This document shows, piece after piece, positions 14,732-64,000 of a stretch of DNA of 64,000 nt. The position numbers were made by a program, and so were the translations under genes. The notes under the pieces are model-generated. The model was given only the letters and a program-made list of their open reading frames with translations, was not told where the DNA came from and ran no database searches. Source of the stretch: Bilabrum cf. latius (Eukaryota). Numbering within the stretch: position 1 is the first letter of the stretch; every line of letters begins with the position of its first letter. The stretch spans positions 62,001 to 126,000 of the forward strand of contig OZ237747.1 in assembly GCA_965178125.1 (NCBI GenBank), in the 5' to 3' direction.

Positions 14732-15589
14732 ATGGCGATTGCATTGATAACGGGAGGTGCACGTGGTTTGGGACAGCAGTTCGCAATGAGGCTGCTCGAT
14801 GCAAAGGTGGTAACAAAGGTTGCTCTTTTAGATCTACTGGACAGCGTACATACGACTTCGGCAGATTTTAACGCGAAGTACGGGCCCGGTACCGCAATGG
14901 CAGTGAAGGTAGACGTGACCAATACAGAAGCTCTGGAAGCTGCGTTTGATCAAGCTGTAGCGTTTGGAGGGTCTGGCAAACTAGACGTGGTTATCAATAA
15001 CGCCGGAATCGCAACTCCAGGGCTTTCTAAAGCTCGTCCAGCCGTTCTGATCAATTTGCTAGCGGTAATTGAAGGCACACGGCTAGCACTGGATCGAATG
15101 GACGGGCAAGGATCCATCGTTAACGTTGCCTCGTACGCAGCCTGCGTTCGGGTGCCGTTCAGTCCCGTGTATGGAGCAACAAAATCGGCCGTGCTACACT
15201 TCTCCCGCTCTCTAAAGTACAAGGCTGCGGAGGGAATCCGCGTGACGGCCCTGTGCCCTTCCTTCGCAGACACCCCGATGGTTCGCGAGAGCATGGGCAT
15301 GCCCACCACGCAGTCTGCCATGTCTGTTTCCAGCGCCGTGTCTGCCCTGGGCACGCTCATGACAGCGGAGCACGTCGCCAACGAGATGCTCCGCCTGGTG
15401 CAGGACGAGTCTCTTGCAGGCGAGGGGCTTGTGGTCACCCCGAGAGGCACGTATGTGTACGAGGCCGGGCGGAGGCCATCTGCACCTGAAGGGGCGGAGA
15501 GGAGGGGGTCTGCCACTGCCACTGCCTCTTCGGTGAAAGCAGCCGCAGTTGGTCTGAAAGGGAGTATGCACGGCTCGGCCAAGTTGTAA
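14732..15589 (+). CDS. Short-chain dehydrogenase/reductase (15-hydroxyprostaglandin dehydrogenase-like), C-terminal AKL
   Basis: ALITGGARGLG (TGxxxGxG), LDVVINNAGI, IVNVAS and YGATK (YxxxK). Ends ...GSAKL-TAA, a PTS1-like signal. Confidence 0.9.
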   Translation: MAIALITGGARGLGQQFAMRLLDAKVVTKVALLDLLDSVHTTSADFNAKYGPGTAMAVKVDVTNTEALEAAFDQAVAFGGSGKLDVVINNAGIATPGLSKARPAVLINLLAVIEGTRLALDRMDGQGSIVNVASYAACVRVPFSPVYGATKSAVLHFSRSLKYKAAEGIRVTALCPSFADTPMVRESMGMPTTQSAMSVSSAVSALGTLMTAEHVANEMLRLVQDESLAGEGLVVTPRGTYVYEAGRRPSAPEGAERRGSATATASSVKAAAVGLKGSMHGSAKL

Positions 15590-15801
15590 CTGAGTGCAGT
15601 GCTGCAATCGGTGAAATACAGAAAACCATCTTGATTGTCGTTTCGCCGCACGCGGCACCGACCTGCCCTGCTGTATACTCGCAAGCAACTCCAAACAGGA
15701 CCAGAATCATGCACATGGGCATGCGTTTAATCTGTCCGATACCTATAATTCTCACTTCGAGCCAGTCGCCCGGTCTTCCATCCTGGGTACAGTGAGTGCC
15801 C

Positions 15802-17590
15802 TCAGAGGGGCAGCTCGAAGTTCACGTCCACGTTGATCTCCTCTGCCTGACTCACGATGTTGGCCACCTTGACGGCCTTCTCGGCAGCCTCGTCCAGGTC
15901 GTCCACCATGATGACCCGCACCTCGTCCGAGGCTGCTTCCATGACCTTCTTGGCGTTGTCCACGTTGGTCCCCTGCAGCCGCACGATGAGCGGCTTCCTC
16001 AGCCCGATCGACTTGGCCGCCGCCACGATTCCCTTGGCGATCATGGACGTGTCCACGATCCCGCCAAAGATGTTCACCAGGATGGCGCGCACCTTCTCGT
16101 CCGAATTAAGGATCTTGAAGGCCGCCTGCACCTGCTTCTCGGTGGCGCCCCCGCCCACGTCCAGAAAGTTGGCCGGGTTGCCCTCGTGCAACTTGATGAT
16201 GTCCAGGGTGGCCATGGCAAGCCCTGCCCCGTTGACCATGCACCCGATGTCCCCGTCCAGCCCGATGTAGTTCAGGTCCCACTTGGCCGCCTCCACCTCC
16301 CTCGCGTCCTCCTGCGCCTCGTCCCTCTGCGCGAAAATGTCCGACTGGCGGAACTCGGCGTTGTCATCGAAATTGATCTTGGCATCGCACACAAACACGC
16401 CGCCCTCGGGCGTCTCAGCGAGCGGGTTCACCTCCACCAGAGTTGCGTCTGTGCTAAGGAACATCTTGTAGAGCGACTTGGTCGTGGACTCGATCTTGGC
16501 CTTGCCATCCTCGCTATCGAAGCCCAGAAAGTGAGCCAGCTCGTCGATCTGAGCGTCCGTGGGACCCGCCTCCATGTTGACCACGGGCACCTTCATGATC
16601 GCCTCCGGGGTCTGCTCCGCCACGTCCTCGATCGAGGTGCCGCCCTTGTACGACGCCACGATCACGGGGCCGCCCGTGCCTCGGTCCATGAGCAAACTCA
16701 AGTACAGTTCCCTGCGCATGTATAACCTCTCCATCAAGAAAACCCTGTCCACGGGGCGCCCCTCTGCCCCCGTCTGCTTGGTCACCAGCTGCTGCTGCAG
16801 CATCTTGCCGGCCAGGTCTTTCGCCTGCGCCGGGCGCGTGCAGATGTGCACACCGCCCTAGAACCCGTTCGTGAACGTACCCAAGCCCCTGCCACCTGCC
16901 AGAACCTATGCCTTGATTACAACGTCGGCTGAATCTGCGATGCACTAGCAAAGGCGCGAAGCGATCCGCAATGCTGACCAATGGCTCAAATCGGGAAGCA
17001 ATCGGACAGCGAGCTAAAGCATCAAGTCCGCAGCTATGGCATGAGTTGCGGCCAATCAAGGGCATCGACGCGTCTGTACATATGCTTTGCTTTGGGCGAT
17101 GCAGCAATAGCCACAACGATGCGCTGAGGTGTGTCGGAATTCCCCAGCACACCGCCAGCGCACCGCAAGCTTTCAAGTCTCACTGCCTCCACCGCTGATC
17201 TCATGATACGCTGCTTCCGCCTCTTCTGCTGTTGAAGCCACAGCACTACGCGGGACAGGCACACCGTACTGCTTCATGATCTCCATGGACTGGTATTCGT
17301 GCAGATTCAAGTACCTTCGCTGGGCACCTGCCCTGAGTCGCGGAGCCTGCGGGTCAAGAAATCGGAATGAGTGTCTCAGAAAGCAAACAATAGCAAATGG
17401 AAGTCGATTATTCCTATCAGATCCATTGCAGTCGGCCAGGGGCGCGGGCGCTAATGGCATATAGTGCAACTATTCGCCGGTACCGGCTGCACCTTGCCCT
17501 GGGGCATAGCTTGAGGTGACTGAACGTGATTCTCACCAGGGCTGCGTTACGAGCAGGCCTTAGGAAGTGTCTCAAACGCCCAAGAGCCAT
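15802..17590 (-). CDS. Mitochondrial succinyl-CoA ligase beta subunit (exons 17590-17537, 17346-17184, 16934-15802)
   Basis: RRYLNLHEYQS, VVIKA*VLAGGRGLG, GCMVNGAGLAMATLDII, NPANFLDVGGGA and ILVNIFGGI motifs. Two GTGAGA...GCAG introns in compatible phase. In-frame TAGs at 16906-16908 and 16858-16860. Ends at TGA. ADP- versus GDP-forming isoform not resolved. Confidence 0.95.
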
Positions 17591-20906: not shown

Positions 20907-23900
20907 TCACTTCTGCTGCATGCGGTAGTCCAGTCCCTGGTTGCCCGCGTCCTGCACGTCTGCGGCCCCGTACGAGAACTCGCGCCAGAGGGCCTCCTCC
21001 TCCGGCCGGAAGGTGTCTCGGTGCCCTGCCACCATGGGCACAGAGGCGTGCAGGAACGGCCCCAGGGCGTTCCTGCGGCTGCGGCCCACGCTCTTGGCCG
21101 GGTCGTTGAAAATGCTACCCCTGGAAGCGGCTCGGTACAGGTACCCCACCTCTGGCAGCAGCAGGATCCCCTTGCCCGCGTTCTTGAGCTTGGAGAACAG
21201 GTTGTAGTCCTGGTAGGCCACCCCCTAGGCCACCTGGGTGTACCCCCCCACATCCCGGAATGCGTCGGCGCGGTGCAGCGCAGACCCCGCCCCGAAGGTG
21301 TTGACGAACATGCTCAGCGGACCCACGTCCCCGAAGGGACACCACTGCCCGTGCTTCGCCTCTTCCTGCACCTCCACCGCGGTCGGGTCTGGGTTCCGGA
21401 ACGTCTCCACCCAGGTGGTCACGACGTCAGCGCCCTCCCTGTACATGGCCGCGACCATCTTCTCGATCGTGTGAGGGAGCAGGTAGTCGTCGTTGTCGAA
21501 GAAGTACAGCAGCTCACCAGTGGCCCTGGAGGCGGCGAAGTTGCGCGCCCCCGACGCGCCCAGGTGGTTCCTCTCGAGCAGCATGCCGCCCCCCGGCTTG
21601 ATCAGCCGACGCACCTCTGCAAAGGTCGTGCGCTCCTCCTCGCTAGACCCATCGTCCACCACGATGATCTGCAGGTGCTTGTACGTGGAGTCAAGCACAG
21701 ACCGCACTGTGGCCAGCAGCTCCTCGCCCCGGTTGTAGTTGGGGATGCAAACTGAGACCAGGGGCCTCGTTTGTTGAGGGAGTTTCAGCGGGGCCACGTG
21801 CATCTCCGAGTCCCGCCCGAACACTGCGATCGCTGACAGCCGCCGGTACATGGCACGGATCGCCTCCCTGCGCCGAAGTAGCGCGCTGGCATCGGGTACG
21901 CTGGCGCCCACCGGGCACTCCTCGCCCCCGTCCTCCACGAGCGCGCGAGCCATGTCACCGATGTCGTCGTCGCGGTAGGTAGAGCAGCTCGAACCATCCA
22001 TCAGATGCGCATACCGGGCGGGTGCCAGCACTGCAATGCCCCACTGGCTCGCCCTCGCCACCAGGCTGGCCTCGGTGCGACTGGCGGGCGCCAGCACCAC
22101 GGTCGCGTCCTGCGGCACCGTCTGCAGGACCTCCTCCATGGACAGCTCGGAGGTGTCGAAGCTGCGGAAGGCGTCCTTGCTGTTCCCGTCCATGGCCCCG
22201 GGAGGCTGCGCGTCCAGCCCGCTAGTGCGCTGCCTCTCTCTCACCTGCTCGCGGATCGCCTCCACGACGCCATCGTCGAAGGCACGGCGCAGCCTGCGGC
22301 CGTAGAACCACACGTTGCTGATCACGCGCCCAACCGGAGAAGCCCTTGTCGACTGCCCGTCACTCCCGCTGGCAGACAGCAGCTGCAGCTCACTCTCCTG
22401 CTCCTGCTGCGAGCGAGCGGCACCGACGGCGTGCAGCAGCTGCTGCAGCATCACCTCCGTGGTGGACTCGGTCTCAACCACAACCAGGGTGCGCTCTGCA
22501 GCGGACCCAGCGGCGGGCGGCCGAGACGCCGTGACATCTCTCGCCCCAGGCATGGGCGGCGGCATGATCGCGATGCGCCTGGCCCTCACGTTCACCCGGA
22601 TGTCTTGCACGCGGTCTTCCGGCGTGGGGTACACGATCACGTCAGCCATCTGCTTGGTGGAGTGCTCGGCCACTGTGGCGAACATGTATGCGCTCGAGTC
22701 CAGGAAGCGGCCCTGCTCGCGGTGCCTGTCGCGCACCGAGCTCGTGGCCAGCGCCACGAAGGCAGTCCGCAGGAACTGCAGGCCCAGCACTCGCCGCCGG
22801 AGGGCCAGCTCGGGTACGGGAAAGTGGCCGTCAAAGAATACCACCTCGTAGTGGTTCTCGCGGGCCTGCAGCCACGCCAAAAACGCATGCATCGCAGTGT
22901 GCAGGTCGGTCTTCGGGGAGGGGCTGCGGCCGGGCACGGAGGCGGGCTGCTCGAACACCCGAATGCCCAGCCGGCCCGCGTGCTCCACGATCTTGCGCAG
23001 GTCTCCGCGCGGGATCCTCGGCGTGTTGGCGAGCAGCAAGTCCACAGGGCCCGCATCAGCCAGCACGTGCGCCACTGCGAAGGGCTCCGAGTCTAGTATC
23101 CCCTGCGAGGACTGCCTCCTGCCGGACGTGACCACGAGCTGCCTCGAGCCGTGGATGGCCTCGTCGTCGACAGCCAGGAGCGCCGCAATCTCGAACACCT
23201 CGATGGGCTCCTTTGAGCCCTTGATAAACCGGATGCGCACACCAGCTGTCCACTGCGGGCCACTGGAAAACATTAGCCGGAACATTTGCACATCCTCGGG
23301 CATCTGGTCAGCACCGGCCATTGCGTGCAGCCGGCTCTTGGGAGCCTCTGCCTCCTGCTTCACGTTGACCCGGGATACCCGCCAATTCAGCCTCTTCCAG
23401 TGATTTTCCTAGTCCTGCATCTCCAAGATGTGGTCGTTGGGGTGCAGCAGCTCTCCTCGAAGGCCCACCAGCAGACCACGCACGAAAGAGTGGTGCACCA
23501 GGCCAAGCCCGAACCAGGCCTGTCTGGGGATGCGGGTGCCGGGCTTCCACGCAGATCTGAGGTCCCCATCCACCGCGGCCGCGAATTGAACGGATGGCTT
23601 GCGCACGGCCCACCCTTGTGGAAACATAGCACGCGCCTGCGCATTATTTGCTGCAGGCTGCCCCTTCGAATTGCTTGTATCCCCATCGCCCTCTCGCTTC
23701 TACTGCCTCCCGTCCACTTGAGCATCCATGGAGCTGAGAAACATGCAATCGTCACTCTGACAAATCGCTTTTTCGGGGAGAAGCATCCAATCTCGCGTCG
23801 CGAATACATGTGGAATTCCACAGTCGAACGGCGCACTGCCCAGCACCTTGAGCGGGGGCAGGGCAGACCCGTCCGGGGCACGGGGCGCCTCTTCCAACAC

Positions 23901-25874
23901 AGCAGCCTTCTGCGTGCCTCCCTCCTCCTGTACCTCGATCCACTCCGGCAGCTGCAGCTGCGAGTCCAAGCATCTCTGCAGAACGCTCAGCGCGACCTGC
24001 TGATGCTCAGACATCTGCTGCAGGTGCGCCATGCAGTCTGCGCATGCGAACTGGTCCGCCGTGTCCAGTCCCTCCTGCACCAACGCAGTCTGCAGGGATA
24101 GCGGGACCTAGTTCAGCAGCAGCGTGAAGTACAGGTCCGCGAATCGCTGCATCTCCGGGGTGGCCCCAATCCTCTCCATCGTAGCCAGGAAGCGCAGCAC
24201 CTGCTCCCGCGGCAGCAGCGCGCCAGTGCCCAGCCAGGCGAACCCGGCGTGCAGTCGCCTGTGTGGCTCAAAGAACGTCCACCGGGAGTTGAGATGGGCC
24301 TGTGACACGTCCGTGGCCACCACTACCCGGCCTGGATGCTTCGAGTACGCCGAGAACAGCGCCCGCAGGTGCTTGGGTCGGTAGTCGTCGTCCACCACGA
24401 AGCACAGCTCTGTCCGCGCCTCTCTGCACCCCGTATATCTGGCCATTGTGAACGAGTTCTATGGGTTATTGATCACCCGGATGGGCACCCGTGTCGCTGC
24501 CCTCGTCTCACTCACACCGACCTCTCCGCCAGCTTCCTGGGCCTGCCCTGCCCCTGCCCCTGCCCCTGCCCCTGCCCCTGCCCCTCCCCTGGCATCCATG
24601 GCCTGCTCCGCCTCCCAGCCCGCGCAGTCCATCTCCTTCTCCGCGTCTCTTTCCATGGGCCGCTCCACGTCGTTGTTCACCACGATGAACTCGGCCAGCA
24701 GGGGAGCATAGTCCCGGATGGCCTCGCACACGATGCCCCGGACATTGGCACGCCGACGGAAAGACACGATCACGCCCGTGGCCTGCGGCAGGGCATCGAA
24801 GCGGTCCTAGAGGGAGAGAGCCACTTCCTTGGCGCGTGCCATCTCCACGTTCGGTCCCACCAGCTTGATCGAGTAGTTCTGCTTGGCTTGCGCTGCCTGC
24901 AGCCGCGTGGCCACCAGGGGGTTGGACCCGAGCACCGGAGTCAGTGCGGCGATGCAGGCTCGGTCCTCGTCCTCCCGGGGATGCGCGCCCAGGGACGCCT
25001 TGGAGGATGGAATCACCTGCAGGGGCGGCAGCCCGGTTTCCTTTGCCACCAGCATGTTCATGGCGACGTCGTCACACCCCGCGAGACCGTCCACCTCCCG
25101 CAGCAGCTGCACCTGGGAAGCGTACAAGAGCAAGAGGCGCCTGTGCAGTAGCGCTGCACGGGTCGACACGACAGAATATGAATCCCTATATCGCGACTTC
25201 ATGCTATCAGGGATACCTGCCGCTCGTGCGAAGGGGCCAACGATCCTCTGCCGGTTGTCTCGCCACACCGCAACCATCTACTCCACGTCTTCGCCACTTA
25301 GCTAGACCCCAGGCTAAACAATCAGGGCAGCGTTATTCTTTACGTGCTAGCCAAGCAGGAACCTATTATTCATGGTCGCGCTTCGCACTGGAATGAGCTT
25401 GATTTGCACCGAACCAGCACTTACCTTTGGAGGCGTCTCAACTGAGCTCCAAGCAACCACTGCTGATTGCACCAAGTTGGAAGTTGACATGCTCTGCAGA
25501 AGCTTACGCAGCTTGCGCAAGTCATCGACAGAATTTGCGTGTGACAGAACGGTTACTCCGTCTTCACCAAGGACCTGTCCAGTGGGTGGCTCCCCAGCCA
25601 AGTTCCTCATGCTGTCGTAAGCCGCAGCATCGTTTCCCGGTGATTCAATCACAACCGGACAATAAAAATCAGAGCGCTGGGGCGTACCATAGTTTTGCTT
25701 GACGCCCGTCTCGCTGCTAACGGTGGCCGGTCCATCAAGAGGCTTGGAAGTTACGGTGGCTGAATATATCAAACCGATTCCAAAAAGGACTAGCACAGTT
25801 CCAAGTGCAATATATAATACTTTTGAACCATCAATGCCGCTCTTTCCTTTGGGACCTCTAGGCCGGGCCTGCAT
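20907..25874 (-). CDS. Multi-domain type II membrane glycosyltransferase (~1655 aa): GT64/EXTL2-like, GT-A-like, GT-B-like and C-terminal GT2
   Basis: Eight ORF fragments in one frame joined only by TAG. N-terminal TM (VLYIALGTVLVLFGIGLIY). GT64-like TMNNRF...VWRDNRQRIVG and GCDDVAMNML. CFVVDDD. GT2 motifs PLVSVCIPNYNR, IIVVDDGS, GASGARN and YFFDNDD. Ends at TGA. Confidence 0.8.
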
Positions 25875-40441: not shown

Positions 40442-40650
40442 TGTTGTATACGTGCTGGATAGTGAGGGCAATCAGAAAGGGTTTGCTGGTTCCTCTTTAT
40501 TCGAATTTTACATTTAAAGTGCACTGCTTAATGCCTTAATTTACGAAACCGGCCACTTTAGCCCTGGTAGTCTCGATCATGGCCGGTAGTCGCAGTTACA
40601 ATTCATCTGTAGCGTCCATTTGCTAGCGGTTCGCAGCACGAGCAGGCAGA

Positions 40651-54421: not shown

Positions 54422-55189
54422 ATGCGAGCAATCGGTATTTTCGCATTGAGTATGTCTTTAGTGCATGCCGTTGATTGCGGTGATCCCCCGGTGGCGCCTA
54501 ACGCGACACAAGGCCCCGCGATCTTGCTGGTCGGCGATTCAATCTCGATGGGCTGCTGCTGGGACCATGTAGCTGGCGAACCGATTGGATATGGCTTTTA
54601 TGTCCGTGATATGCTATCAAACTTTTCGCTAGGTGCGGTCCAACATTGTGGGGGCTGGGGGCTGGGAGGCCAGGCGGGTCCTACCCCTGTGCAGCTTCAG
54701 TGCGCAAAGCAGTGGGTAGGGTCTTATAAGTGGGATGTTATCACGTACAACAGCGGCCTACACGACCTAGCGAATGATTCTGAGCACGTGCCTTTGGACT
54801 AGTATGCTAAGAACGTGGTCTCTGTCGCGAAGACGTTTCTTCAAAGCACCAAGCGCCTCGTGTGGGTGAGCACGACGCCAGTGCCGGATGTGGACGTTTC
54901 CCCGTCTCGCAAGCCATAGGATGTCATTGCGTACAACTAGGCAGCGTATGATGCACTGGATGCGGCCATTGGGTTCGGAGCGAAGGGCGAGGGCCGCCTC
55001 CAGTACATCGACCTCTGGCAGGCCGTGATCAACAGGTGCGGGGGCTCGCCCCACTACACCGCCTGCGACATCTAGAGGCCCAAGAACGTGCACTACCTGG
55101 AGCCAGGACGCCAGTACACGGGCATCACGATGGCACAGGGCATTATTCAGGCCATCGGCACCGTGAATGCCACAGTGCCATCCCATTGA
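54422..55189 (+). CDS. Secreted SGNH/GDSL hydrolase
   Basis: ILLVGDSISMG (block I), WDVITYNSGLHDL (block III), LVWVSTTPVP and CDI*RPKNVHY (block V). In-frame TAGs at 54800, 54917, 54938 and 55073. Ends at TGA. Confidence 0.85.
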
Positions 55190-55393: not shown

Positions 55394-58300
55394 TCACACG
55401 TCATGCTCTAGAGCATGCCTGAACAAGTCAGCTGCTTCCCTCCCGCGAGCGACTGACACTCGGTCGACCTCAGCCAGCCCCTGCCCATCGCCCACCCCCG
55501 CTGCACGCGCTCTCAGCTCCGATCGACTGCCCCCATCGCCCACTCCCGCTGCACGCGCTCTCAGCTCCGATCGACTGCCCCCGACCTCCAGCACCGACAC
55601 GTGCCTCCACGCGTCCATGAGGCCTAACAGCCCCCTGCCCGCTGCATCCCTCTCCCCGCCTCCCTGTGCCGAGGCGACGGGGCTGGCGGCTGCCTGGCTC
55701 GCCGCCATGATGGGAGAGCCCCTGTCCCCGAGCTGGTGCAGGGTGGAGCTCTCCACCAGCGGATCGATAGAGGGCACGTCTCCCACCCCGGTGCGAAGGC
55801 CCTCCGCGCGAGCAGACAACACCCTCGCCAGGATATGTGGCTCCGGGTCCTCCACCCAGCTCCTTGCAGCCTCAAACACGCGAGCCCAGAGACTAGTCGA
55901 CCACCGAACAGGTTCTCCGCCTGCTGTTCCAGTGGCACCAGCCCCTTCGCCAGCACAAGAGCCAGTGGCCCGCCTGCACTTGAATGCAATGCACTTGAAT
56001 GCAACCGCAGCTCCGTGCTGCATGCCTGGCGCGACTCTCCGTCTCTCCACCTCCCCGGGCTGCTTCCAGAGGATAGCACCCTGCCCCTTTCTGTCCAGTG
56101 ATGCGTATGGAGACTGCAGCCTCGTCTCCCGTGCGATGGACACAGCGCGCTGCTGCAGCTCCTCGACGTGCTTCTCCTCGCCCGGATGCCCGAAGCGGTG
56201 CTCCCCCCCCAACATGCGAGCTATGCTGCGCAGTGCCCGCCCTCTGATGGCGGACTGTGCTCCATTTGTCCCATTTTCCTAGTGACTCTTCCTCTATCGG
56301 TTCAGCGGAGACTGCTCCACTCCACTCATTCCCATCACAAACACAGGGAGCGGCATCCATCGGAGGCCCCCGCCCCCGCACGGATGCAGGCATCGGCGGG
56401 CCGCACCGCACCCAGCCGCGCCTCCAGCTCTCCCATCGGTACTGCCTCCGCCGTATTCATCGAAGCTGCGAGCCCTGGCCAGCTGGTCTCTAGCTAGTTG
56501 CATGTCCAGTTCACCCTAGGCCTCTTGACCTCCCCTGTGCACCCCCTCTTGGCCTCCCCTGTGCACCCCCTCTTGGCCTCCCCTGTGCACCCCCTCTTGG
56601 CCTCCCCTGTGCACCCCCTCTTGGCCTCCCCTGTGCACCCCCTCTTGGCCTCCCCTGTGCACCCCCTCTTGGCCTCCCCTGTGCACCCCCTCTTGGCCTC
56701 CCCTGTGCACCCCCTCTTGGCCTCCCCTGTGCACCCCCTCTTGGCCTCCCCTGTGCACCCCCTCTTGGCCTCCCCTGTGCACCCCCTCTTGGCCTCCCCT
56801 GTGCACCCCCTCTTGGCCTCCCCTGTGCACCCCCTCTTGGCCTCCCCTGTGCACCCCCTCTTGGCCTCCCCTGTGCACCCCCTCTTGGCCTCCCCTGTGC
56901 ACCCCCTCTTGGCCTCCCCTGTGCACCCCCTCTTGGCCTCCCCTGTGCACCCCCTCTTGGCCTCCCCTGTGCACCCCCTCTTGGCCTCCCCTGTGCACCC
57001 CCTCTTGGCCTCCCCTGTGCACCCCCTCTTGGCCTCCCCTGTGCACCCCCTCTTGGCCTCCCCTGTGCACCCCCTCTTGACCTCCCCTGTGCACCCCCTC
57101 TTGGCCTCCCCTGTGCACCCCCTCTTGGCCTCCCCTGTGCACCCCCTCTTGGCCTCCCCTGTGCACCCCCTCTTGGCCTCCCCTGTGCACCCCCTCTTGG
57201 CCTCCCCTGTGCACCCCCTCTTGGCCTCCCCTGTGCACCCCCTCTTGGCCTCCCCTGTGCACCCCCTCTTGGCCTCCCCTGTGCACCCCCTCTTGGCCTC
57301 CCCTGTGCACCCCCTCTTGGCCTCCCCTGTGCACCCCCTCTTGGCCTCCCCTGTGCACCCCCTCTTGGCCTCCCCTGTGCACCCCCTCTTGACCTCCCCT
57401 GTGCACCCCCTCTTGGCCTCCCCTGTGCACCCCCTCTTGGCCTCCCCTGTGCACCCCCTCTTGGCCTCCCCTGTGCACCCCCTCTTGGCCTCCCCTGTGC
57501 ACCCCCTCTTGGCCTCCCCTGTGCACCCCCTCTTGGCCTCCCCTGTGCACCCCCTCTTGGCCTCCCCTGTGCACCCCCTCTTGGCCTCCCCTGTGCACCC
57601 CCTCTTGGCCTCCCCTGTGCACCCCCTCTTGGCCTCCCCTGTGCACCCCCTCTTGGCCTCCCCTGTGCACCCCCTCTTGGCCTCCCCTGTGCACCCCCTC
57701 TTGGCCTCCCCTGTGCACCCCCTCTTGGCCTCCCCTGTGCACCCCCTCTTGGCCTCCCCTGTGCACCCCCTCTTGGCCTCCCCTGTGCACCCCCTCTTGG
57801 CCTCCCCTGTGCACCCCCTCTTGGCCTCCCCTGTGCACCCCCTCTTGGCCTCCCCTGTGCACCCCCTCTTGACCTCCCCTGTGCACCCCCTCTTGGCCTC
57901 CCCTGTGCACCCCCTCTTGGCCTCCCCTGTGCACCCCCTCTTGGCCTCCCCTGTGCACCCCCTCTTGGCCTCCCCTGTGCACCCCCTCTTGGCCTCCCCT
58001 GTGCACCCCCTCTTGGCCTCCCCTGTGCACCCCCTCTTGGCCTCCCCTGTGCACCCCCTCTTGGCCTCCCCTGTGCACCCCCTCTTGGCCTCCCCTGTGC
58101 ACCCCCTCTTGGCCTCCCCTGTGCACCCCCTCTTGGCCTCCCCTGTGCACCCCCTCTTGGCCTCCCCTGTGCACCCCCTCTTGGCCTCCCCTGTGCACCC
58201 CCTCTTGGCCTCCCCTGTGCACCCCCTCTTGGCCTCCCCTGTGCACCCCCTCTTGGCCTCCCCTGTGCACCCCCTCTTGGCCTCCCCTGTGCACCCCCTC

Positions 58301-60004
58301 TTGGCCTCCCCTGTGCACCCCCTCTTGGCCTCCCCTGTGCACCCCCTCTTGGCCTCCCCTGTGCACCCCCTCTTGGCCTCCCCTGTGCACCCCCTCTTGG
58401 CCTCCCCTGTGCACCCCCTCTTGGCCTCCCCTGTGCACCCCCTCTTGGCCTCCCCTGTGCACCCCCTCTTGGCCTCCCCTGTGCACCCCCTCTTGGCCTC
58501 CCCTGTGCACCCCCTCTTGGCCTCCCCTGTGCACCCCCTAGTGCAGCCCCTCGTGCAGCCAGGCCTTCTCTATAGCCTCCTGCAGCGCACTGCCGTGCAC
58601 CCCACCAGCAGTCGATGACGATGCTCCGGAGGCGCCACCACATGATCGCCGGCCAGCTGCCTCCAGCATCGCTGTTCCCCGCACCGGCAGGCCCAGCTCG
58701 TCCACCTCCAGCCCAGCACGCAGCAACCGCTCCTCCCGCTCCTCGACGGCCGCTGCATCCACGCCCAGTGCATCGAGTGGCTCCTCCTCCTCCTCCCGCT
58801 CCTCGACGGCCGCTGCATCCACGCCCAGTGCATCGAGTGGCTCATCCTCCTCCTCCCGCTCCTCGACGGCCGCTGCATCCACGCCCAGTGCATCGAGTGG
58901 CTCATCCTCCTCCTCGTCCTCCCCCCACTCACCCCCTTGCCTCCTTCCAACAGCGGCCCACTCCAGCCCGAAGGAACCATCGCCCGGCAAGGGCATGCCA
59001 GTGCCCCTCACCCCCGTGGCTAGCCGCCCCAGGACTTCTTCGGCGCCGGGCACGAAGGGGCGAAGGGTGGGATACGCCGCGAGGAGCTCTGTGCGCACCG
59101 CAGTGGGATGCACGTGCGGTACGAAATGACTGCCTTGCCCATCTTTGAAGGGTAGCGGCATGCCTGGATCCAGCGGGCACCAGGCCAAGTAGCCGGGGGC
59201 CGGGCCTCCCGCGCCCGTTCCCTTCAAGTTGCGAGGGCGCGCCTCTTGTGGCCCTGTTCCTGCGGGTGTCCCAGCGGCTTCGATTCGGGATGATACTGCG
59301 CGTAGCCACTGGAAGGTCTTTGCCCTCGTGGTCGTGTCCCGGTCTGGGCTAGTGCCAGTGCCAGTGGTGCCACTCCCAACGGGCGGGCCTCTACTGCTGG
59401 CACTGTTGCCTCCATCACATTGCCGGTCGCACGGTGTTGCGATGCTGTCTACGTCGAGAGCAGCAACGATACGGAAGTCGACCAAGGGCCAACCTACTGC
59501 CTAGGCAAGGGGAGGGCCTAGAGAAAGGGCTTGGTTCCAAGTCTCGCGGCTGTACGCGTGCAGTACTACTTGCTGCACCGGCCTGGTGCGGGCCAACATA
59601 GACCTCTCAATGTGACGCTTTGCATAGAACACGTTGTTGGCATCAGACCAATACCTAGGCAGTGTCATGACAAGCTGACTTATTTTGTTGGTGCTGTTGA
59701 GCACTCCCGTCCGGGCTGCGACCACCACTGGCTACGTACTCCGATTATCACAACCACGCAGAGCGCCATCTCCGTCGGGAAGAGGGATATCTATGAGATC
59801 AACTAGGCAATTCAAATCGTTGTGATCAATTAAGTGTGCGTGCAGAACAGGAGCACGTGCTTGTGCGTCTGAGAGCCAAGCCAAAGTGCTGTGCTGCTAG
59901 CCGGGAAGCAGCCCATTCTCAGCTCTGCCGTGTAAAGCTGACCATAAAACAGATTTATCATGAACTCTGGCACATGCTACTGCCAGCAGAGCCAGCAAAA
60001 GCAT
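55394..60004 (-). CDS. Putative secreted protein (~1536 aa) with ~84 tandem GVHRGGQE octapeptides
   Basis: Signal peptide MLLLALLAVACA at ATG 60004. Fragments 59501..59728, 58538..59485, 56516..58534, 56294..56503 and 55394..56215 share one frame joined by TAG. Ends at TGA. Confidence 0.6.
56521..58537. repeat. 24-bp minisatellite x ~84 (cctcttggcctcccctgtgcaccc)
   Basis: Perfect tandem array with four G>A variant units (near 56528, 57080, 57392 and 57872). Confidence 0.97.
58731..58915. repeat. 60-bp tandem repeat x3 (EE(E/D)EPLDALGVDAAAVEERE on the minus strand)
   Basis: Lines 58741, 58801 and 58861 are nearly identical. Confidence 0.9.
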
Positions 60005-60136: not shown

Positions 60137-63100
60137 ATGGGTGAGCTTTCCTGCACAGTGCCGTCTTCAGCCAAGGTCCTGCAGCTGCTAGCTTGGCGAT
60201 TCTGCAAGTTAGTTGCATTTATGCGCATGCTCTCTGCGCAGGAGGACAAGCTGCTCAAGCGACTTTCTTCTCTCTAGCAATCACTTCAAGATGTTGCAGC
60301 CTCGATCGCATCTGCTTCCACCAGTTTGCTGCGGGAGCCGCGGGATGGCCGGGATCACAGACGTCACACCGTATCGATTTCACACAGCTCCCTGGATCGC
60401 TTTCAAGCTGATGTGCGGGCGAAGAGGAAGCGTTTTGATAACATCACATCAGATTTGAACCGGTGCATGGACGCACTGCATCGTATCCGCACGCCTGACG
60501 TGCTCGACTGCAAGGTCTGGAGCGTCTCTCTGCCGGCCCCCATCCGAGGGGGCCGGCGCCGCACCGCCAGAACAATACTGAGTGGCCAGCCGAATGATTC
60601 GCTGACATCCATTGGAGCCAACTCGCTGATCCTGTCGTCCTCCATCCCGGGAGAGGCATCGGTGGTCGCATCTGGCGGGGGCGCCCTACTGGGCCTCCCC
60701 CTGTCGCACCCCTCGATCGCACCCGCACCAACCCTGCAGTGGTAGACAAGTGGCCATGCTTCTGACGACAGGTAGAACTGTCAGCTCGTGGCCGTCAATG
60801 GAAGCGACCTGGGGGACGGGGGAGCAGCGGGGGGGCGGCCGGGCAGGGCAGGCTCGGACGGGACACCCGCCGGAGGGAGCCCCACGGGGGGCAGGGACTC
60901 GGAGTCGTTAGCGACCTCCGTGGGGCCCGACACAGACGCAGACGCGGCAGACAGGAGGGCGCGGGCCAGTACCCCCGAGCTGAGGCTTACCAGTGGGCCC
61001 GGGCCCGAGGAGGACGACGACGTAGACACTGGCAGGAATGGGCCGCAGGGGGGCAGCGGAAAGGGGTTGCTTGAGCTGCCCATAGCGCCCCCCACGTTGC
61101 CTGCACGTGGAGCTGGCGTTGAAGGCGGGGGTGGGAGCGGGGCTCAGTACCCCGGTCCCGATGCGAATGCGAGCTACTGGCAGCCCGCCTCCCTGCCCAG
61201 CGTGGCACACTCCAGCAGGCCACTGGCTGCCATGCGCGCGCTGCATGGGGGCCAGTGGGCGGCCAGCGGCGCCAGCTCGGGACAGCATACCGCCGCTGTG
61301 GTCACTGCGGGGGGGCACTGCCTGGTGCTAGACCTGGGCCGAAGGGGCAGGGCGGGGCTATCCGGGGGGTACAGCGGCCTGCCGGTGGGCGGACATGGGG
61401 CGGGGCCTGTGTTCCCTGGGGTGAGTGGCACGAGGCTGGGTCCGGAGGGCATGCAGGTTGGTACTGGGGCGGGGATGGGGGCAGGGCTTCAGTTGCACCG
61501 GGGCTCGCTGGAGGCCCCGGCCGCGAGCGGCAGGGGCGGCGGCGTGCTGCCGGGACCCCATGGCGGCGCGGGTGGTCTGTCCGCAGATGGACTGGAGCGG
61601 GCGGCTCTGGCGGTGGCCAGGGATGGGCCGGCCTCGCTTCCCAGCGCGGCCGCCCGGACTCTGGCTCGAGCAGCGGCGGCGGCGCAGCAGGCGCAGCACG
61701 ACCATGAGCAGCAGCACCAGCATGCAATGCACCACATGTTCCCCTCCGACGCCGGCGGGCCCCCGGATGCGGTTGGCCCGGGCACCGTCAGGAGTCTCTC
61801 CTCCCACGCTGCCTCTAGAGCACCCGCCGAGCACCAGCACCCCACTGCTGACGGTGCCATGGGCGGGCACGGGCTTGTAGGGGGTGGGCACCTGCGCGGG
61901 GCAATGAGCCGGCTGGGCTGGCGGGTGGGCGCCCCGCTGCCCGGCGCTCCCGTGGCCTCGCCGCCAGTGCCCGTGGTGTGCGTGGACGAGGACGCGCCCT
62001 CTCACCGCCGCTTCAGCCCGAGGTTCGTCTCGGTCAAGCACGCGCAGGGCCGCGTGTTTGCACTCACGAGCGGCGGCACCGTGGTCTGGTGGCCCGACGT
62101 GCGGCACGCGCAGCTGGCGCGGGCCAGCAGTCGCTCTCTGTCTGGCGAGCGGGCGCCAGGGGGAGACCCCGGGGCCCGAGGGAGGGGCGGGGAAGGTGCA
62201 ACGGGACATGGGGGGGAGTCCCATCGGTTCGCGTGCCGCATCGCGGGCGCGCCCCGAGTGGTGGCCAGGAAGCTGCCGCTGGCTGGCACCGCGCTGCGGG
62301 TGCAGGGGCGGCCGCCCGTTGCCTGCCTGCAGCCAGGCGACTCGCTGCATGGATATCCCGTGACCACCACCTGGGCCAGCATGGCGGACGCGCCCAGAGC
62401 CTTTCCCATCTCGCTGGCCGATGGGAGCCAGGGAAGACAGGAGAACACGGCGCACATATACGGGAGCCGCGGGAAGGCGGCCCTTGCTGTGTCCTAGTCT
62501 TCCAGAGGGATTTCTGCCGAGGCGGCGCTGGTGCCGCTGCGGGGCACTGGCAGGGACAGGGGGGCGCAGGGAGGCGCGGGCGGGGGCCCAGCCAGGCATC
62601 CGGGGCTGGAGCAGGTACCACCAGGGAGCCAGGGGGCGGGCGTGGGTGTGGCCCCTGACGGGAGCTCTCACCGTGTGTCGAGGGCAGCCACAGCGGCGGT
62701 GGTGGAACACACCGGGGACGAGGCCGGTGTTGGTGTTGGGGTGGGGGAGCTGACCGGGGCGGGGCAGCGCGGGGAGAGCCCTGCTCTGGAGGAGGGGGGC
62801 GTTGGCAGCGGGGCTGATGGGTCCTCTCCTCTGAAGCGGCGGTCGATCTTCGCTGGGATCGTGTCCGCAGTGGGCAGCGCGTTCGGGAGCGGGTCCAGCA
62901 GTAGGAGATCGGCCGCCATCGGCCAGGCGCAGCAGTCGTCCCCTGCCCGTGCCCTCGCCGCGGCCTCGGGCTAGAGCGGGCAGGAGGGGGGGGCCGAGGA
63001 TAGCCCGAAGAGGACCCGCTCCTCGACCGGCTCGGACGCACGGCCTCCCTCGGGGCAGAGCCCGGAGGGCACTCCGGCCAGGGAACAGCGCGGAGGGCCA

Positions 63101-64000
63101 GGGGTAGGGTCCCGGTCTCGATCGCGAGGTGGCTCCGAGGGAGGCAGCCACTCTTCGGACGGTGGCAGAACGCCTGAACACGGGGAGAGAGAGAGGGTCC
63201 GCAGCGACGGGCAGCGGCCTCACCAGGCCGGGCGGTCACCCTCAGCTCCGTCTGCTTCCTCGATGCAGGCGGCCAGGCAGCCCGCGAGGAGACCGTGCGT
63301 AGTTCCCTGTCCCTCGCAGCCCAGCCGCTCGCTGCAGCGGGCCAACGCGCTGGTGGTGCGGGTGCGCGACATGTTCGTGGCCGGGGGCAGGCTCGGGTGC
63401 GTGGCGCAGCTCCTGTCCAGCCGCACCAGCCGACGGGTCGATCTGCTCCTGTTCGCGTTCAGCGCAAAGGAGCTGAGGGCGGCGGCCGAGGCGCCGCACG
63501 GGCACGAAGACCTGTCCCCAGGGGGCGCCGGGGGAGAGAGCGGAGCCAGCAGCTCGGTGTTTGCCGGCAGGCCCTAGCTTGATCAGTTGGAGGAGGACCA
63601 GGAGTTGGTGCTTGTGCCCTGCCACGCGACTGTGAGGCAGCCAGTGGAGCAGGGGCAGGCGCAGGGGCAGGGGTCCAGAGCGGGCGGAGGGGGATCGGGA
63701 CAGGGTGCGAGAAGGCGATGGGTGCCTGGGCAACCAGCGATCGGGAGAGCAGCAGCGGACGCTGTGGTCAGGCAGGAGGGCGAGGAGGGGTCCGTAGGCG
63801 GCGGGGGCGCGCTGATGGCGTGCAGCAAGACTATGGGCGTGCTGGTGGCAGATGCTTCTGCTCTTCGCCTGTACTGGCACGCTGACGTTATGATGGCAAG
63901 GCGCCGGAGGGACTCGCCCTCCGCTGGCGAGTCCTCCAACCAGCAGGAGGAGCAGGAAGCACGGGAACGGGGCAGAGACAGAGACAGAGACAGGGACGGG
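60137..64000 (+). CDS. Large hypothetical Gly/Ala-rich protein, incomplete at window end (weak RCC1/beta-propeller-like segments)
   Basis: ATG 60137. Fragments starting at 60326, 60788, 62531 and 63263 share one frame joined by TAG, and the frame stays open to the end of the window. Confidence 0.55.

What the first reader, a model, noticed from the sequence alone, without database searches (positions are those of the whole stretch)
14732..64000. Non-canonical nuclear genetic code: UAG reassigned to a sense codon (Gln) while UAA and UGA remain stops
Seen in sequence: TAG occurs in-frame in about 16 of 19 host genes. It falls inside conserved blocks: succinyl-CoA ligase VVIKA[TAG]VLAGGRG (16906-16908, minus), SGNH CDI[TAG]RPKNVH (55073), carnitine acyltransferase WWE[TAG]LVYL (26721) and DHHC TTIEFY[TAG]N (41791), and it can occur in tandem (52158-52163). 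Every complete gene model ends at TGA or TAA. Established: the succinyl-CoA ligase beta motif is KAQV(L/H)AGGRG, so that TAG aligns to Gln. UAA and UAG are usually reassigned together; UAG-only reassignment (NCBI table 15-like) is reported in few eukaryotes, such as the fornicate Iotanema and some ciliates. Inference: this GC-rich, flagellate-like protist may be an independent, possibly unreported case, which would need a tRNA-Gln(CUA) and an eRF1 that ignores UAG.
Basis: partly seen in the sequence, partly recalled or inferred. Interest (0 to 1): 0.95.

Follow-up and report, generated by a model that had tools for sequence, protein, structure and literature searches.

The report
UAG read as glutamine, eukaryote
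This GC-rich piece of a eukaryote's nuclear genome uses the normal stop codon TAG inside nearly all of its genes, most likely to encode glutamine, while TGA and TAA still end genes: a rare variant of the genetic code in a lineage that could not be placed.

Summary
With only TAA and TGA as stops, the window has 9 ORFs of 1000 or more codons (longest 2063). The standard code gives a longest ORF of 1265, and 0 of 100 shuffles reached 1000. Sixteen ORF models (16,758 codons) hold 111 in-frame TAG, 0 TAA and 0 TGA. Stretches matched by Pfam domains (2,924 codons) hold 14 TAG, 0 TAA, 0 TGA. All cited coordinates are correct. TAG is not an assembly error or an editing site: runs from four studies carry the same letters, and a spliced transcript contig retains two TAGs. 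Twelve alignable TAG columns favour Gln (posterior 0.98-1.0), including two near-invariant Gln columns. One differently weighted calculation favoured Glu. TGA ends genes at conserved C-termini. TAA is absent from gene bodies but is less well tested as a terminator. No tRNA, eRF1 or whole genome was available, so the mechanism is inferred. The lineage is unplaced; it is not Amoeboaphelidium, and nothing suggests a ciliate or a fornicate. A relative about 90% identical seems to share the code. My searches found no published match. Verdict: probably a new occurrence of the known "UAG=Gln only" code.

The parts
15802..16934 (-). Last exon of succinyl-CoA ligase beta, ending in TGA (15802-15804) directly after the conserved C-terminus. 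Coding TAGs at 16906-16908 and 16858-16860.
   Evidence: Pfam ATP-grasp_2 and Ligase_CoA. The PDB alignment runs to the last residue of human SUCLA2. TAG 16906 column: Q 83, M 35 of 120. TAG 16858 column: K 73, Q 26. A spliced contig of run X6 covers 16221-16934 with 0 differences.
16935..17183 (-). GT..AG intron of the succinyl-CoA ligase beta gene. It holds the non-coding TAGs at 17014 and 16945.
   Evidence: Joint 16934->17184 in runs X5 and X6, absent from X1 and X8. Intron ends are GTGAGA..CGCAG.
17184..17590 (-). Exons 1 (17536-17590, coding part) and 2 (17184-17345) of succinyl-CoA ligase beta, with a second intron at about 17346-17535.
   Evidence: Joint 17345->17536 in X5 and X6. The spliced reading gives MALGRL...LNLHEYQSMEIMKQYGVPVP, the canonical N-terminus.
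20907..25874 (-). Large glycosyltransferase gene (GT64-like domains plus GT2) with 10 coding TAGs, ending in TGA.
   Evidence: Pfam. TAG 24108 column: Q 38 of 104, the commonest residue. TAG 25314 column: D 42 of 42, but inside a degenerate DxD motif. Contigs of X5/X6 cover 20742-24153 and 24706-25838 with 0 differences. The start M was inferred from fragments of a relative.
26184..28451 (+). Carnitine/choline acyltransferase with TAGs at 26460 and 26721. It ends ...SKL then TGA.
   Evidence: Pfam Carn_acyltransf, E 4.5e-172. TAG 26721 aligns to K of mouse CrAT. C-terminus SKL followed by TGA. X6 contig covers 26186-28500 with 0 differences.
28591..33339 (-). Rsm22/METTL17-like mitoribosome assembly methyltransferase ORF with 13 TAGs, ending in TGA.
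   Evidence: Pfam Rsm22. PDB METTL17. TAG positions.
34311..39146 (+). Long coiled-coil, low-complexity ORF with 8 TAGs, including the tandem TAG TAG at 35850-35855. Ends in TGA.
   Evidence: No Pfam family.
40579..42531 (+). DHHC palmitoyltransferase with 7 TAGs, including 41791. Ends in TGA.
   Evidence: Pfam DHHC. In the PDB alignment TAG 41791 faces R and TAG 41932 faces S of human DHHC20.
45438..51554 (+). Kelch / ephrin-receptor-like membrane protein ORF with 3 TAGs. It is the only host model ending in TAA (51552-51554).
   Evidence: Pfam..
51687..52664 (+). DOT1-like methyltransferase with 3 TAGs, including the tandem TAG TAG at 52158-52163. Ends in TGA.
   Evidence: Pfam DOT1..
52739..54316 (-). 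GHL15-family ORF with 4 TAGs. Its last sense codon is TAG (52742-52744), directly before TGA.
   Evidence: Pfam GHL15..
54422..55189 (+). SGNH/GDSL hydrolase with 4 TAGs. TAG 55073-55075 lies at a near-invariant Gln column.
   Evidence: Q in 115 of 120 homologs, within the motif (I/L)Q(L/R)PKNVH. Homology continues past this last TAG.
55394..60004 (-). ORF with a long tandem array of 8-residue repeats (GVHRGGQE) and 7 TAGs. Ends in TGA.
60137..64000 (+). ORF open at the window end, with 6 TAGs.
42786..44981 (-). Rieske / cholesterol-7-desaturase-like gene without any TAG. It has one of the highest GC3 values (0.86). Ends in TGA.
   Evidence: Pfam Rieske and KshA_C. Atlas score 0.95 to cholesterol 7-desaturase clusters..
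1728..14659 (.). Element of 12.9 kb bounded by perfect 53-nt inverted repeats. Its large ORFs (2378-7447 on the minus strand, 9085-13440 on the plus strand) carry 24 and 17-18 in-frame TAGs.
   Evidence: Inverted repeats at 1728-1780 and 14607-14659. ORFs and TAG counts. GC3 0.52 and TAG = 31-32% of presumed Gln codons. No Pfam family.

Best explanation
The window is nuclear DNA of a GC-rich, intron-poor eukaryote. Its cytoplasmic ribosomes read UAG as a sense codon, most likely glutamine. UGA is the usual terminator, and UAA is kept out of coding sequence (a terminator, or at least unassigned). UAG behaves as a minor synonymous Gln codon. It makes up about 13% of presumed Gln codons overall and is rarer in the genes with the strongest GC3 bias.

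Shown here: in-frame UAG in most genes, its retention in spliced mRNA, and its alignment to Gln at conserved columns.

Inferred by analogy with other reassigned codes, not seen here: a tRNA-Gln with anticodon CUA, and an eRF1 that no longer recognises UAG but still recognises UAA and UGA.
For: 1. ORF structure.
- With TAA/TGA as the only stops, the nine longest ORFs are 2063, 1695, 1689, 1611, 1590, 1582, 1451, 1335 and 1296 codons. The standard code gives a longest ORF of 1265. Reading TAA as sense instead adds almost nothing.
- 0 of 100 block shuffles gave an ORF of >=1000 codons.

2. Codon counts.
- 16 ORF models (16,758 codons) hold TAG 111, TAA 0, TGA 0 in frame.
- 2,924 codons inside Pfam-matched stretches of 12 genes hold TAG 14, TAA 0, TGA 0.
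- There are two tandem TAG-TAG pairs.
- There is no special +4 context after TAG.

3. Not an artefact or an editing site.
- Four runs from four studies carry the stretch 15700-28500 with 0 differences on their long pieces.
- X5 and X6 contigs show two GT..AG splice joints that X1 and X8 lack.
- The spliced X6 contig carries TAG 16906 and TAG 16858.
- 13 of the 14 coding TAGs in that stretch lie on X5/X6 contigs with 0 differences.

4. Meaning of TAG.
- TAG 55073: Q in 115 of 120 homologs.
- TAG 16906: Q 83, M 35 of 120.
- TAG 24108: Q 38 of 104, the commonest residue.
- TAG 54800: Q 33, D 31, E 19.
- Over the 12 alignable coding columns, the product of column frequencies gives Q a posterior of 0.999 with sequence weights and 0.98-1.0 for pseudocounts 1, 5 and 20.

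5. Relatives.
- Protein fragments about 90% identical stop exactly before the window's TAG at 25347.
- Other fragments stop opposite the window's CAG (Gln) at 15847, 14 codons before the conserved C-terminus of SCS-beta.

6. Stops.
- TGA follows the conserved last residues of SCS-beta.
- TGA follows the C-terminal SKL of the acyltransferase.
- TAAs occur in frame only at ORF edges, for example 5 within the 191 codons upstream of DHHC.
Against: - A first likelihood run used HMMER's entropy-weighted profiles. My occupancy filter dropped the SGNH 55073 column. That run favoured Glu (0.71), with Gln at only 0.03. The assignment therefore depends on how columns are weighted and rests heavily on two or three conserved columns.
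- Some columns do not fit Gln. TAG 25314 faces D in 42 of 42 homologs, although the next two invariant D positions are P and G in this protein, so the motif is degenerate here. TAG 25278 faces F in 21 of 42.
- Single-sequence comparisons give K (CrAT), R and S (DHHC20) and L (a bacterial GT2).
- The close relative has Leu where the window has TAG 23409. It has a stop where the window has GAG (Glu) at 23208.
- I could not see the relative's DNA, so its stops are only presumed to be TAG.
- No tRNA, eRF1, peptide data or whole genome was available.
- ORFs were delimited by TAA/TGA, so the absence of TAG terminators is partly by construction. The GHL15 ORF has TAG as its last codon before TGA, and the 34311-39146 ORF has a TAG 18 codons before its end.
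- UAA as a true terminator rests on two ORF ends with no homology check. The Kelch TAA is followed in the same frame by the DOT1-like ORF.
Confidence: 0.84

Rival explanations
1. UAG is a sense codon but encodes another residue. Glutamate is the most likely alternative, as in Blastocrithidia or the ciliate PL0344. Leucine is another, as in the rhizarian exLh and some phyllopharyngean ciliates.
For: - The entropy-weighted profile calculation favoured Glu at 0.71.
- Glu is present at >=10% in 6 of 12 columns, the same number as Gln.
- The relative's stop faces GAG in the window.
- The relative has Leu at the window's TAG 23409, and a bacterial GT2 has Leu at TAG 21225.
Against: - At the two conserved columns, neither Glu nor Leu appears among the residues found at TAG 16906 (Q 83, M 35, T 1 of 120). 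At TAG 55073 Glu is absent and Leu occurs once (Q 115 of 120).
- With raw or sequence-weighted counts, Glu's posterior is 0.0007-0.018. Leu is more than 13 log units behind Gln at every pseudocount tried.
Confidence: 0.05
2. Both UAG and UAA are reassigned to Gln, which is the common 'UAR=Gln' code reported for Amoeboaphelidium, hexamitin diplomonads and many ciliates. On this view UAA is simply rare in a GC-rich genome, and UGA is the sole stop.
For: - UAA and UAG usually change together (PMC5304391 abstract).
- Only 2 ORFs end in TAA, and neither end is checked by homology.
- The Kelch TAA (51552) is followed in the same frame by the DOT1-like ORF.
Against: - There are 0 in-frame TAA against 111 TAG in 16,758 codons. 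If TAA:TAG followed the overall CAA:CAG ratio (200:521), about 40 TAA would be expected.
- With TGA as the only stop, ORFs hardly lengthen, and the TAAs lie only at ORF edges.
- GC3 drops from 0.83 to 0.61 across the Kelch TAA, as expected at a gene boundary.
Confidence: 0.05
3. UAG is ambiguous. It is a sense codon inside genes but also a terminator near mRNA 3' ends, giving position-dependent termination as in Condylostoma or Blastocrithidia.
For: - The GHL15 ORF reads ...TCC TAG TGA.
- The 34311-39146 ORF has a TAG 18 codons before its TGA.
- My ORF definition could not detect TAG terminators.
Against: - At 0.66% TAG per codon, about 2 of 16 ORFs are expected by chance to have a TAG within their last 20 codons.
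- Where the end can be checked (SCS-beta, the acyltransferase, SGNH), homology runs past the last TAG to a TGA.
Confidence: 0.05
4. The TAGs are not translated as written. They result from assembly or sequencing error, from RNA editing of UAG to CAG, from unrecognised introns or pseudogenes, or from low-level readthrough without reassignment.
For: Two TAGs of the raw SCS-beta ORF did turn out to be intronic.
Against: - The same letters occur in runs of four studies.
- TAG is retained on a spliced transcript contig and on gene-length contigs of X5/X6 with 0 differences.
- TAG lies inside Pfam-matched stretches 14 times, with 0 TAA and 0 TGA there.
- There are tandem TAG-TAG pairs and up to 24 TAGs per ORF. 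These are incompatible with inefficient readthrough or with decay that spares TAA and TGA.
Confidence: 0.01

Closest known systems
Iotanema spirale (Metamonada, Fornicata): UAG = Gln, UAA and UGA stops (PMC5304391, abstract read)
   Same: The code table is the same: only UAG is reassigned, and it is read as glutamine.
   Different: Iotanema is an anaerobic fornicate in which UAA is the primary terminator. Here UGA ends 13 of 14 complete host models. The genome is about 62% GC and encodes a mitoribosome assembly factor of the Rsm22 type. A different lineage is therefore likely.
Phyllopharyngean ciliates Hartmannula sinica and Trochilia petrani: UAG putatively Gln (PMC11687900, abstract read)
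   Same: UAG alone is reassigned, and to Gln.
   Different: These are ciliates with UAA as the preferred stop. The window has ordinary long genes in a 64-kb array with GT..AG introns, and UGA is the main stop. Nothing here points to a ciliate. Ciliate membership itself was not tested by phylogeny.
Rhizarian exLh and an uncultivated phyllopharyngean clade: UAG = Leu (PMC5304391 and PMC11687900, abstracts)
   Same: UAG is decoupled from UAA.
   Different: Leu is strongly disfavoured by the conserved columns here.
Amoeboaphelidium protococcarum: UAR = Gln (passages of PMC5304391 and PMC6299283)
   Same: Stop-to-Gln reassignment in a non-ciliate eukaryote. I considered it because the best named glycosyltransferase homologs are opisthokonts.
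   Different: Both UAA and UAG are reported as Gln there. The Amoeboaphelidium genomes are 40.5% and 39.9% GC (PMC10608142, Table 1), against about 62% here. Their proteins carry NCBI accessions, yet the best named SCS-beta hit is only 65% identical. Rejected.
NCBI table 15 (labelled 'Blepharisma nuclei; some phages' by the translate tool), including crAss-like phages (PMC9523058, search listing only)
   Same: It reads TAG as Q and changes nothing else.
   Different: The genes here are eukaryotic nuclear genes with spliceosomal introns, not phage or ciliate genes.

Membership tests
UAG=Gln-only nuclear code (NCBI table 15 type) | UAG occurs in frame inside conserved protein-coding sequence | tested here: met
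   14 TAG in 2,924 Pfam-matched codons. 111 TAG in 16,758 ORF codons. Alignments run through TAG.
UAG=Gln-only nuclear code (NCBI table 15 type) | UAG columns correspond to glutamine in homologs | tested here: met
   Q in 115 of 120 and in 83 of 120 homologs at the two conserved columns. Q is commonest in 4 of 12 columns, with posterior 0.98-1.0. Caveat: one weighting scheme favoured Glu, and only 12 columns were available.
UAG=Gln-only nuclear code (NCBI table 15 type) | UAG is present in mature mRNA (not edited, not spliced out) | tested here: met
   The spliced X6 contig carries TAG 16906 and 16858. 13 of 14 coding TAGs in 15700-28500 lie on X5/X6 contigs with 0 differences. These are assembled contigs, not raw reads, so rare variants would be missed.
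UAG=Gln-only nuclear code (NCBI table 15 type) | UGA terminates translation | tested here: met
   TGA directly follows the conserved C-terminus of SCS-beta and the SKL end of the acyltransferase. There are 0 in-frame TGA in 16,758 codons.
UAG=Gln-only nuclear code (NCBI table 15 type) | UAA is not a sense codon | tested here: met
   0 in-frame TAA in 16,758 codons, against about 33 per off frame. TAAs occur only at ORF edges.
UAG=Gln-only nuclear code (NCBI table 15 type) | UAA functions as a terminator | tested here: inconclusive
   Two ORFs end at TAA (Kelch at 51552; the element ORF at 2378), and neither end could be checked by homology.
UAG=Gln-only nuclear code (NCBI table 15 type) | A tRNA with anticodon CUA and Gln identity | not testable with these tools
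   No tRNA in the window (ARAGORN; Rfam). No whole genome is held.
UAG=Gln-only nuclear code (NCBI table 15 type) | eRF1 altered so that UAG is not recognised | not testable with these tools
   eRF1 is not in the window, and no genome is held.
UAR=Gln code (NCBI table 6 type) | UAA also occurs in frame as a sense codon | tested here: not met
   0 TAA against 111 TAG in frame. ORFs barely extend when TAA is read through.
UAG=Leu code (rhizarian exLh type) | UAG columns correspond to leucine | tested here: not met
   Leu is not among the residues seen at the TAG 16906 column and occurs once in 120 at the TAG 55073 column. Its log-likelihood is far below that of Gln.
Genus Amoeboaphelidium (known stop-to-Gln lineage) | Genome about 40% GC and proteins matching the deposited proteomes | tested here: not met
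   The window is 50-72% GC. The best named SCS-beta hit is 65% identical. Published GC values are 40.5% and 39.9% (PMC10608142, Table 1).

The most novel reading that the evidence does not exclude
This is an independent, so far unpublished origin of the 'UAG=Gln only' nuclear code in an unplaced, aerobic, GC-rich eukaryote. Here UGA rather than UAA is the main terminator. A sister lineage about 90% identical shares the code. A resident 12.9-kb inverted-repeat element has adapted to it, writing about a third of its Gln codons as UAG, so the element can be expressed only in hosts that read UAG as sense.
Probability: 0.45. Interest if true: 0.8.

Novelty: new member of a known kind. Interest (0 to 1): 0.7.

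Why it matters
- Changes in which UAG is decoupled from UAA are rare. The papers I read report them for two non-ciliate lineages and a few ciliates. Each new case tests whether eRF1 and tRNA evolution can separate the two codons.
- A GC-rich case with UGA as the main stop would be a useful contrast to the UAA-terminating cases.
- There is a practical consequence. Standard-code gene callers truncate this organism's proteins. The public protein collections already hold such fragments from a relative. Any annotation or phylogenomic use of this assembly therefore needs table 15.

Tried and rejected
**Tools unavailable or failed**
- No whole genome is held. Genome-wide Codetta, tRNA and eRF1 searches were therefore impossible.
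- The search for related loci on metagenome contigs, meant to fetch the DNA of the ~90% relative, failed five times with machine errors. TAG-to-CAG/CAA substitutions between orthologs could not be read at DNA level.
That protein was not sent anywhere afterwards, so the 12.9-kb element stays uncharacterised beyond 'no Pfam family'.
- Read laying failed once and then worked.

**Searches with little yield**
- The search for homologous proteins on the glycosyltransferase gave only 1 hit.
- One PDB query was out of frame.
- My first column mapping of the glycosyltransferase alignment was wrong and was redone.
- The SCS-beta row was out of frame and was corrected.
- PDB alignments for DOT1, GT2 and Rsm22 gave only variable or gapped TAG columns.

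**RNA status of the runs**
- No listed run is on record as RNA.
- I call X5 and X6 transcript-derived only because of their splice joints. The tool itself labels X5 'probably DNA'.

**Placement**
- The SCS-beta FastTree (121 rows, including two long-branch rows) puts the window and P0003 on an isolated branch in an unresolved polytomy.
- The nearest named SCS-beta hits are stramenopiles (64-65% identity for most; diatoms and Ectocarpus 61-63%).
- The best named glycosyltransferase homologs are the holozoans Sphaeroforma and Corallochytrium, at about 31-32% identity.
- No placement is claimed.

**Rejected idea**
- The aphelid (Amoeboaphelidium) hypothesis was rejected on GC content and the lack of close NCBI hits.

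**Supplements**
- Supplementary files of papers were not opened. Those of PMC5304391 and PMC11687900 may list further taxa with UAG reassignment.

Full report
**What the window is.** The 64-kb window is 50-72% GC and has one 200-N gap at 13061-13260. It carries ordinary eukaryotic nuclear genes, found by Pfam:
- succinyl-CoA ligase beta
- an LC8-type dynein light chain
- a rhodanese-domain protein
- a very large GT64+GT2 glycosyltransferase
- a carnitine/choline acyltransferase
- an Rsm22/METTL17-like mitoribosome factor
- a DHHC palmitoyltransferase
- a Rieske/KshA_C protein, which the protein atlas groups with cholesterol 7-desaturases
- a Kelch/ephrin-receptor-like membrane protein
- a DOT1-like methyltransferase
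- a GHL15 protein
- an SGNH hydrolase

Spliceosomal introns exist but are few. No tRNA or other Rfam family is present.

**Check of the observation.**
A second tandem pair is at 35850-35855.
- Reading TAG as sense turns a fragmented picture into one of compact long genes. The longest ORFs become 2063, 1695, 1689, 1611, 1590, 1582, 1451, 1335 and 1296 codons, against a longest of 1265 under the standard code.
- Reading TAA as sense instead changes almost nothing.
- Reading TGA as sense lengthens ORFs in all six frames (44 ORFs of >=500 aa). This is what removing the commonest stop triplet from GC-rich DNA does, so it is not gene-specific.
- None of 100 block shuffles gave an ORF of >=1000 codons (longest 989), against 9 observed.
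- In 16 ORF models (16,758 codons) there are 111 in-frame TAG, 0 TAA and 0 TGA. The other two frames of the same stretches hold roughly 120 TAG, 33 TAA and 250 TGA per frame (the SCS-beta row of that call was out of frame and was corrected). TAG is therefore not avoided in frame, while TAA and TGA are avoided completely.
- A measure that does not depend on how I drew ORF ends: inside the stretches matched by Pfam models (2,924 codons in 12 genes) there are 14 TAG, 0 TAA and 0 TGA.

**Corrections to the raw picture.**
- Contigs of runs X5 and X6 show two joints, 16934->17184 and 17345->17536. Both have GT..AG ends on the minus strand, and both are absent from runs X1 and X8.
- Splicing them restores the canonical N-terminus of succinyl-CoA ligase beta (…LNLHEYQSMEIMKQYGVPVP…) behind a start Met at 17590. 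The TAGs at 17014 and 16945 are therefore intronic.
- Fragments from a close relative begin at MQARPRG. This puts the glycosyltransferase start at 25874, so TAG 25911 is probably 5'UTR.
- In 14732-64000 I count 15 gene models. Twelve have coding TAGs, two have none (rhodanese-like, Rieske) and one is uncertain (dynein light chain).
- Of the 14 complete models, 13 end in TGA and 1 in TAA.

**Not an artefact, not edited.**
- The stretch 15700-28500 is present with 0 differences on the long pieces of four runs from four studies.
- The only variant letters lie at 24069-24743 and look allelic. None touches a TAG.
- The 959-nt X6 contig that carries both splice joints also covers 16221-16934 without a difference, so TAG 16906 and TAG 16858 sit on a spliced transcript.
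- Thirteen of the 14 coding TAGs in the laid stretch lie on gene-length X5/X6 contigs with 0 differences.
- Caveats: these are assembled contigs, no run is on record as RNA, and the tool itself labels X5 'probably DNA'. I call X5 and X6 transcript-derived only because of the joints.

**Which amino acid.** I translated TAG as X and looked at what homologs have there.

*Deep alignments:*

| TAG (window) | Gene | Homolog residues |
|---|---|---|
| 55073 | SGNH | Q in 115 of 120, within the motif (I/L)Q(L/R)PKNVH |
| 16906 | SCS-beta | Q 83, M 35 of 120 |
| 16858 | SCS-beta | K 73, Q 26 |
| 54800 | SGNH | Q 33, D 31, E 19 |
| 54917 | SGNH | G 44, D 37 |
| 54938 | SGNH | A 42, E 34, Q 16 |
| 24108 | glycosyltransferase | Q 38 of 104, commonest |
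| 24459 | glycosyltransferase | E 25, S 19, A 14, Q 8 of 112 |
| 25347 | glycosyltransferase | D 14 of 41 |
| 25302 | glycosyltransferase | mixed |
| 25278 | glycosyltransferase | F 21 of 42 |
| 25314 | glycosyltransferase | D 42 of 42 |

TAG 25314 is the first residue of the DxD-type motif. (That this motif is catalytic is recalled, not tested.) The next two invariant D positions are P and G in this protein, so the motif is degenerate here and the column says little.

*Likelihood over these 12 columns:*
- Multiplying column frequencies gives Q a posterior of 0.999 with sequence weighting.
- With raw counts and pseudocounts of 1, 5 and 20 the posterior for Q is 0.98-1.0. Glu is second and Leu is far behind.

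*An earlier attempt must be reported against this.* HMMER's entropy-weighted profiles flatten the columns. My >=30-sequence filter removed the 55073 column, because the local alignments reached it in only 26 sequences. That run favoured Glu (0.71), with Gln at 0.03. The Gln call is therefore good but rests on few columns.

*Single-sequence comparisons are uninformative:* K in mouse CrAT; R and S in human DHHC20; C, R and T in DOT1-like chains; L in a bacterial GT2; a gap in METTL17.

*Composition.* With TAG counted as Gln, Gln makes up 1-8% of residues per gene. TAG is 13% of Gln codons overall (111 of 832). Its share falls with GC3 (Spearman rho -0.54, p 0.03, 16 ORFs).

**A relative seems to share the code.** The protein collections hold standard-code gene calls that are 89-90% identical to the window's proteins and are truncated.
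- P0243 and P0398 end exactly one residue before the window's TAG at 25347.
- P0003 and P0391 (SCS-beta) start at the first Met after the window's TAGs. They end opposite the window's CAG (Gln) at 15847, 14 codons short of the conserved C-terminus.
- P0242 and P0397 end opposite the window's GAG (Glu) at 23208. They have Leu where the window has TAG 23409.
- I could not obtain the relative's DNA, so its stops being TAG is presumed. The pairs TAG/TAG, stop/CAG, stop/GAG and TAG/Leu are all single-base neighbours of TAG. Only the stop/CAG pair speaks specifically for Gln.

**Stops.**
- TGA is a real terminator. It follows the last conserved residues of SCS-beta, where the alignment runs to the end of human SUCLA2. 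It also follows the C-terminal SKL of the acyltransferase. That SKL is a peroxisomal targeting signal is recalled knowledge.
- TAA never occurs inside a gene body. With TGA as the only stop, ORFs hardly grow, and the in-frame TAAs lie at ORF edges. For example, there are 5 in the 191 codons upstream of DHHC and 2 upstream of the glycosyltransferase.
- Only the Kelch gene and the large ORF of the inverted-repeat element end in TAA, and neither end can be checked by homology.
- The Kelch TAA is followed in the same frame by the DOT1-like ORF, but GC3 falls from 0.83 to 0.61 across it.
- I therefore regard 'UAA is not sense' as shown, and 'UAA terminates' as likely.
- Whether UAG can also terminate near 3' ends cannot be excluded. 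One ORF ends …TAG TGA (52742), and one has a TAG 18 codons before its TGA. About two such cases are expected by chance at the observed TAG density.
- No nucleotide context distinguishes TAG from CAG.

**Mechanism.**
- Shown: UAG is in mature mRNA, in frame, in most genes, at Gln-like positions, sometimes twice in a row.
- Inferred: a cognate tRNA-Gln(CUA) and an eRF1 that has lost UAG recognition while keeping UAA and UGA. This is by analogy with the lineages in PMC5304391 and PMC11687900 (abstracts read). Neither component is in the window, and no genome is held.

**Who is it?**
- *Unresolved placement.* Most of the nearest named SCS-beta sequences are stramenopiles (oomycetes mostly 64-65% identical, diatoms and Ectocarpus 61-63%; Mucochytrium 65%, Platysulcus 63%). 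In a FastTree of 121 rows, the window and P0003 sit on an isolated branch in an unresolved polytomy. The best named homologs of the glycosyltransferase are the holozoans Sphaeroforma arctica and Corallochytrium, at about 31-32% identity.
- *Aphelid idea rejected.* I tested whether this is an aphelid, because Amoeboaphelidium protococcarum is reported to read UAR as Gln (passages). Its genomes are 40.5% and 39.9% GC (PMC10608142, Table 1) and its proteins are in NCBI. The window is about 62% GC and has no close NCBI hit. I rejected the idea.
- *Other known lineages.* An Rsm22-type mitoribosome factor and a presequence-bearing TCA enzyme argue against a fornicate such as Iotanema. Nothing suggests a ciliate. 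Neither exclusion was tested by phylogeny.
- *Mixed labels.* The stretch occurs in runs labelled with four different organism codes. The organism may therefore live with, or contaminate, other cultures.

**Novelty.**
- The code table itself is known. It is NCBI table 15, reported in Iotanema and in two phyllopharyngean ciliates.
- Four full-text searches found no report of such a code in a stramenopile or any GC-rich non-ciliate, non-metamonad eukaryote. Three more searches on aphelids found none either.
- The library lacks most subscription journals, and I opened no supplements. The public runs date from 2025, so a description may exist or be in preparation.
- I rate this 'new member of a known kind', with interest 0.7.

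**In passing.** Positions 1728-14659 are bounded by perfect 53-nt inverted repeats. The region holds two large ORFs without any Pfam family. Their GC3 is 0.52, against 0.61-0.88 for most host genes. Their presumed Gln codons are about one third TAG. This looks like a mobile element that can be expressed only under this code.

Noticed in passing
window 1728-14659: Perfect 53-nt inverted repeats (1728-1780 and 14607-14659) bound a 12.9-kb element. It holds ORFs 2378-7447 (-), 7484-8446 (-) and 9085-13440 (+), none with a Pfam family. GC3 is 0.52, and TAG makes up 31-32% of presumed Gln codons, far more than in host genes. It is probably a DNA transposon adapted to the variant code. No clear target-site duplication was seen.
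   Followed up: partly
window 16935-17183 and about 17346-17535 (minus strand): Two GT..AG introns of the succinyl-CoA ligase beta gene were revealed by spliced contigs. The gene's 5' exons lie head to head with the dynein light chain gene (transcript contigs start at about 17713-17760).
   Followed up: yes
window 24032-25015: All four runs carry a second, diverged version of parts of the glycosyltransferase gene (variants at 24069-24743). Three runs (X1, X5, X8) carry a form that skips 234 bases (24780->25015, in frame, non-canonical ends). This is probably allelic variation at a (GA)n-rich region.
   Followed up: no
window 25302-25320 (minus strand): The N-terminal GT64-like domain has X-P-G where 42 of 42, 39 of 42 and 42 of 42 homologs have D-D-D. 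The second GT64-like domain keeps VVDDDY. The first domain is probably catalytically dead.
   Followed up: partly
window 28440-28451: The carnitine/choline acyltransferase ends in SKL, a peroxisomal targeting signal by recall, directly before TGA.
   Followed up: no
window about 56500-58540 (minus strand): A very long tandem array of an 8-residue unit (GVHRGGQE) lies inside a 1590-codon ORF. It uses CAA for Gln (92 CAA against 18 CAG), unlike every other host gene.
   Followed up: no
window 52739-52744 (minus strand): The GHL15 ORF ends ...TCC TAG TGA. TAG is either its last sense codon or, if UAG can still terminate in some contexts, its real stop.
   Followed up: partly
window 42786-44981 (minus strand): A Rieske/KshA_C protein that the protein atlas places with cholesterol 7-desaturase (Neverland) clusters at score 0.95. 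It has a long membrane-like N-terminal extension, contains no TAG and has one of the highest GC3 values (0.86).
   Followed up: partly
window 15700-18200 (runs X1-X8): The same stretch is held at 0.58-1.00 of its sampled words by runs labelled with four different organism codes from four studies. This suggests the organism co-occurs with, or contaminates, other cultures.
   Followed up: no
window 13061-13260: A run of 200 N (an assembly gap) interrupts the 9085-13440 ORF without breaking its frame.
   Followed up: no
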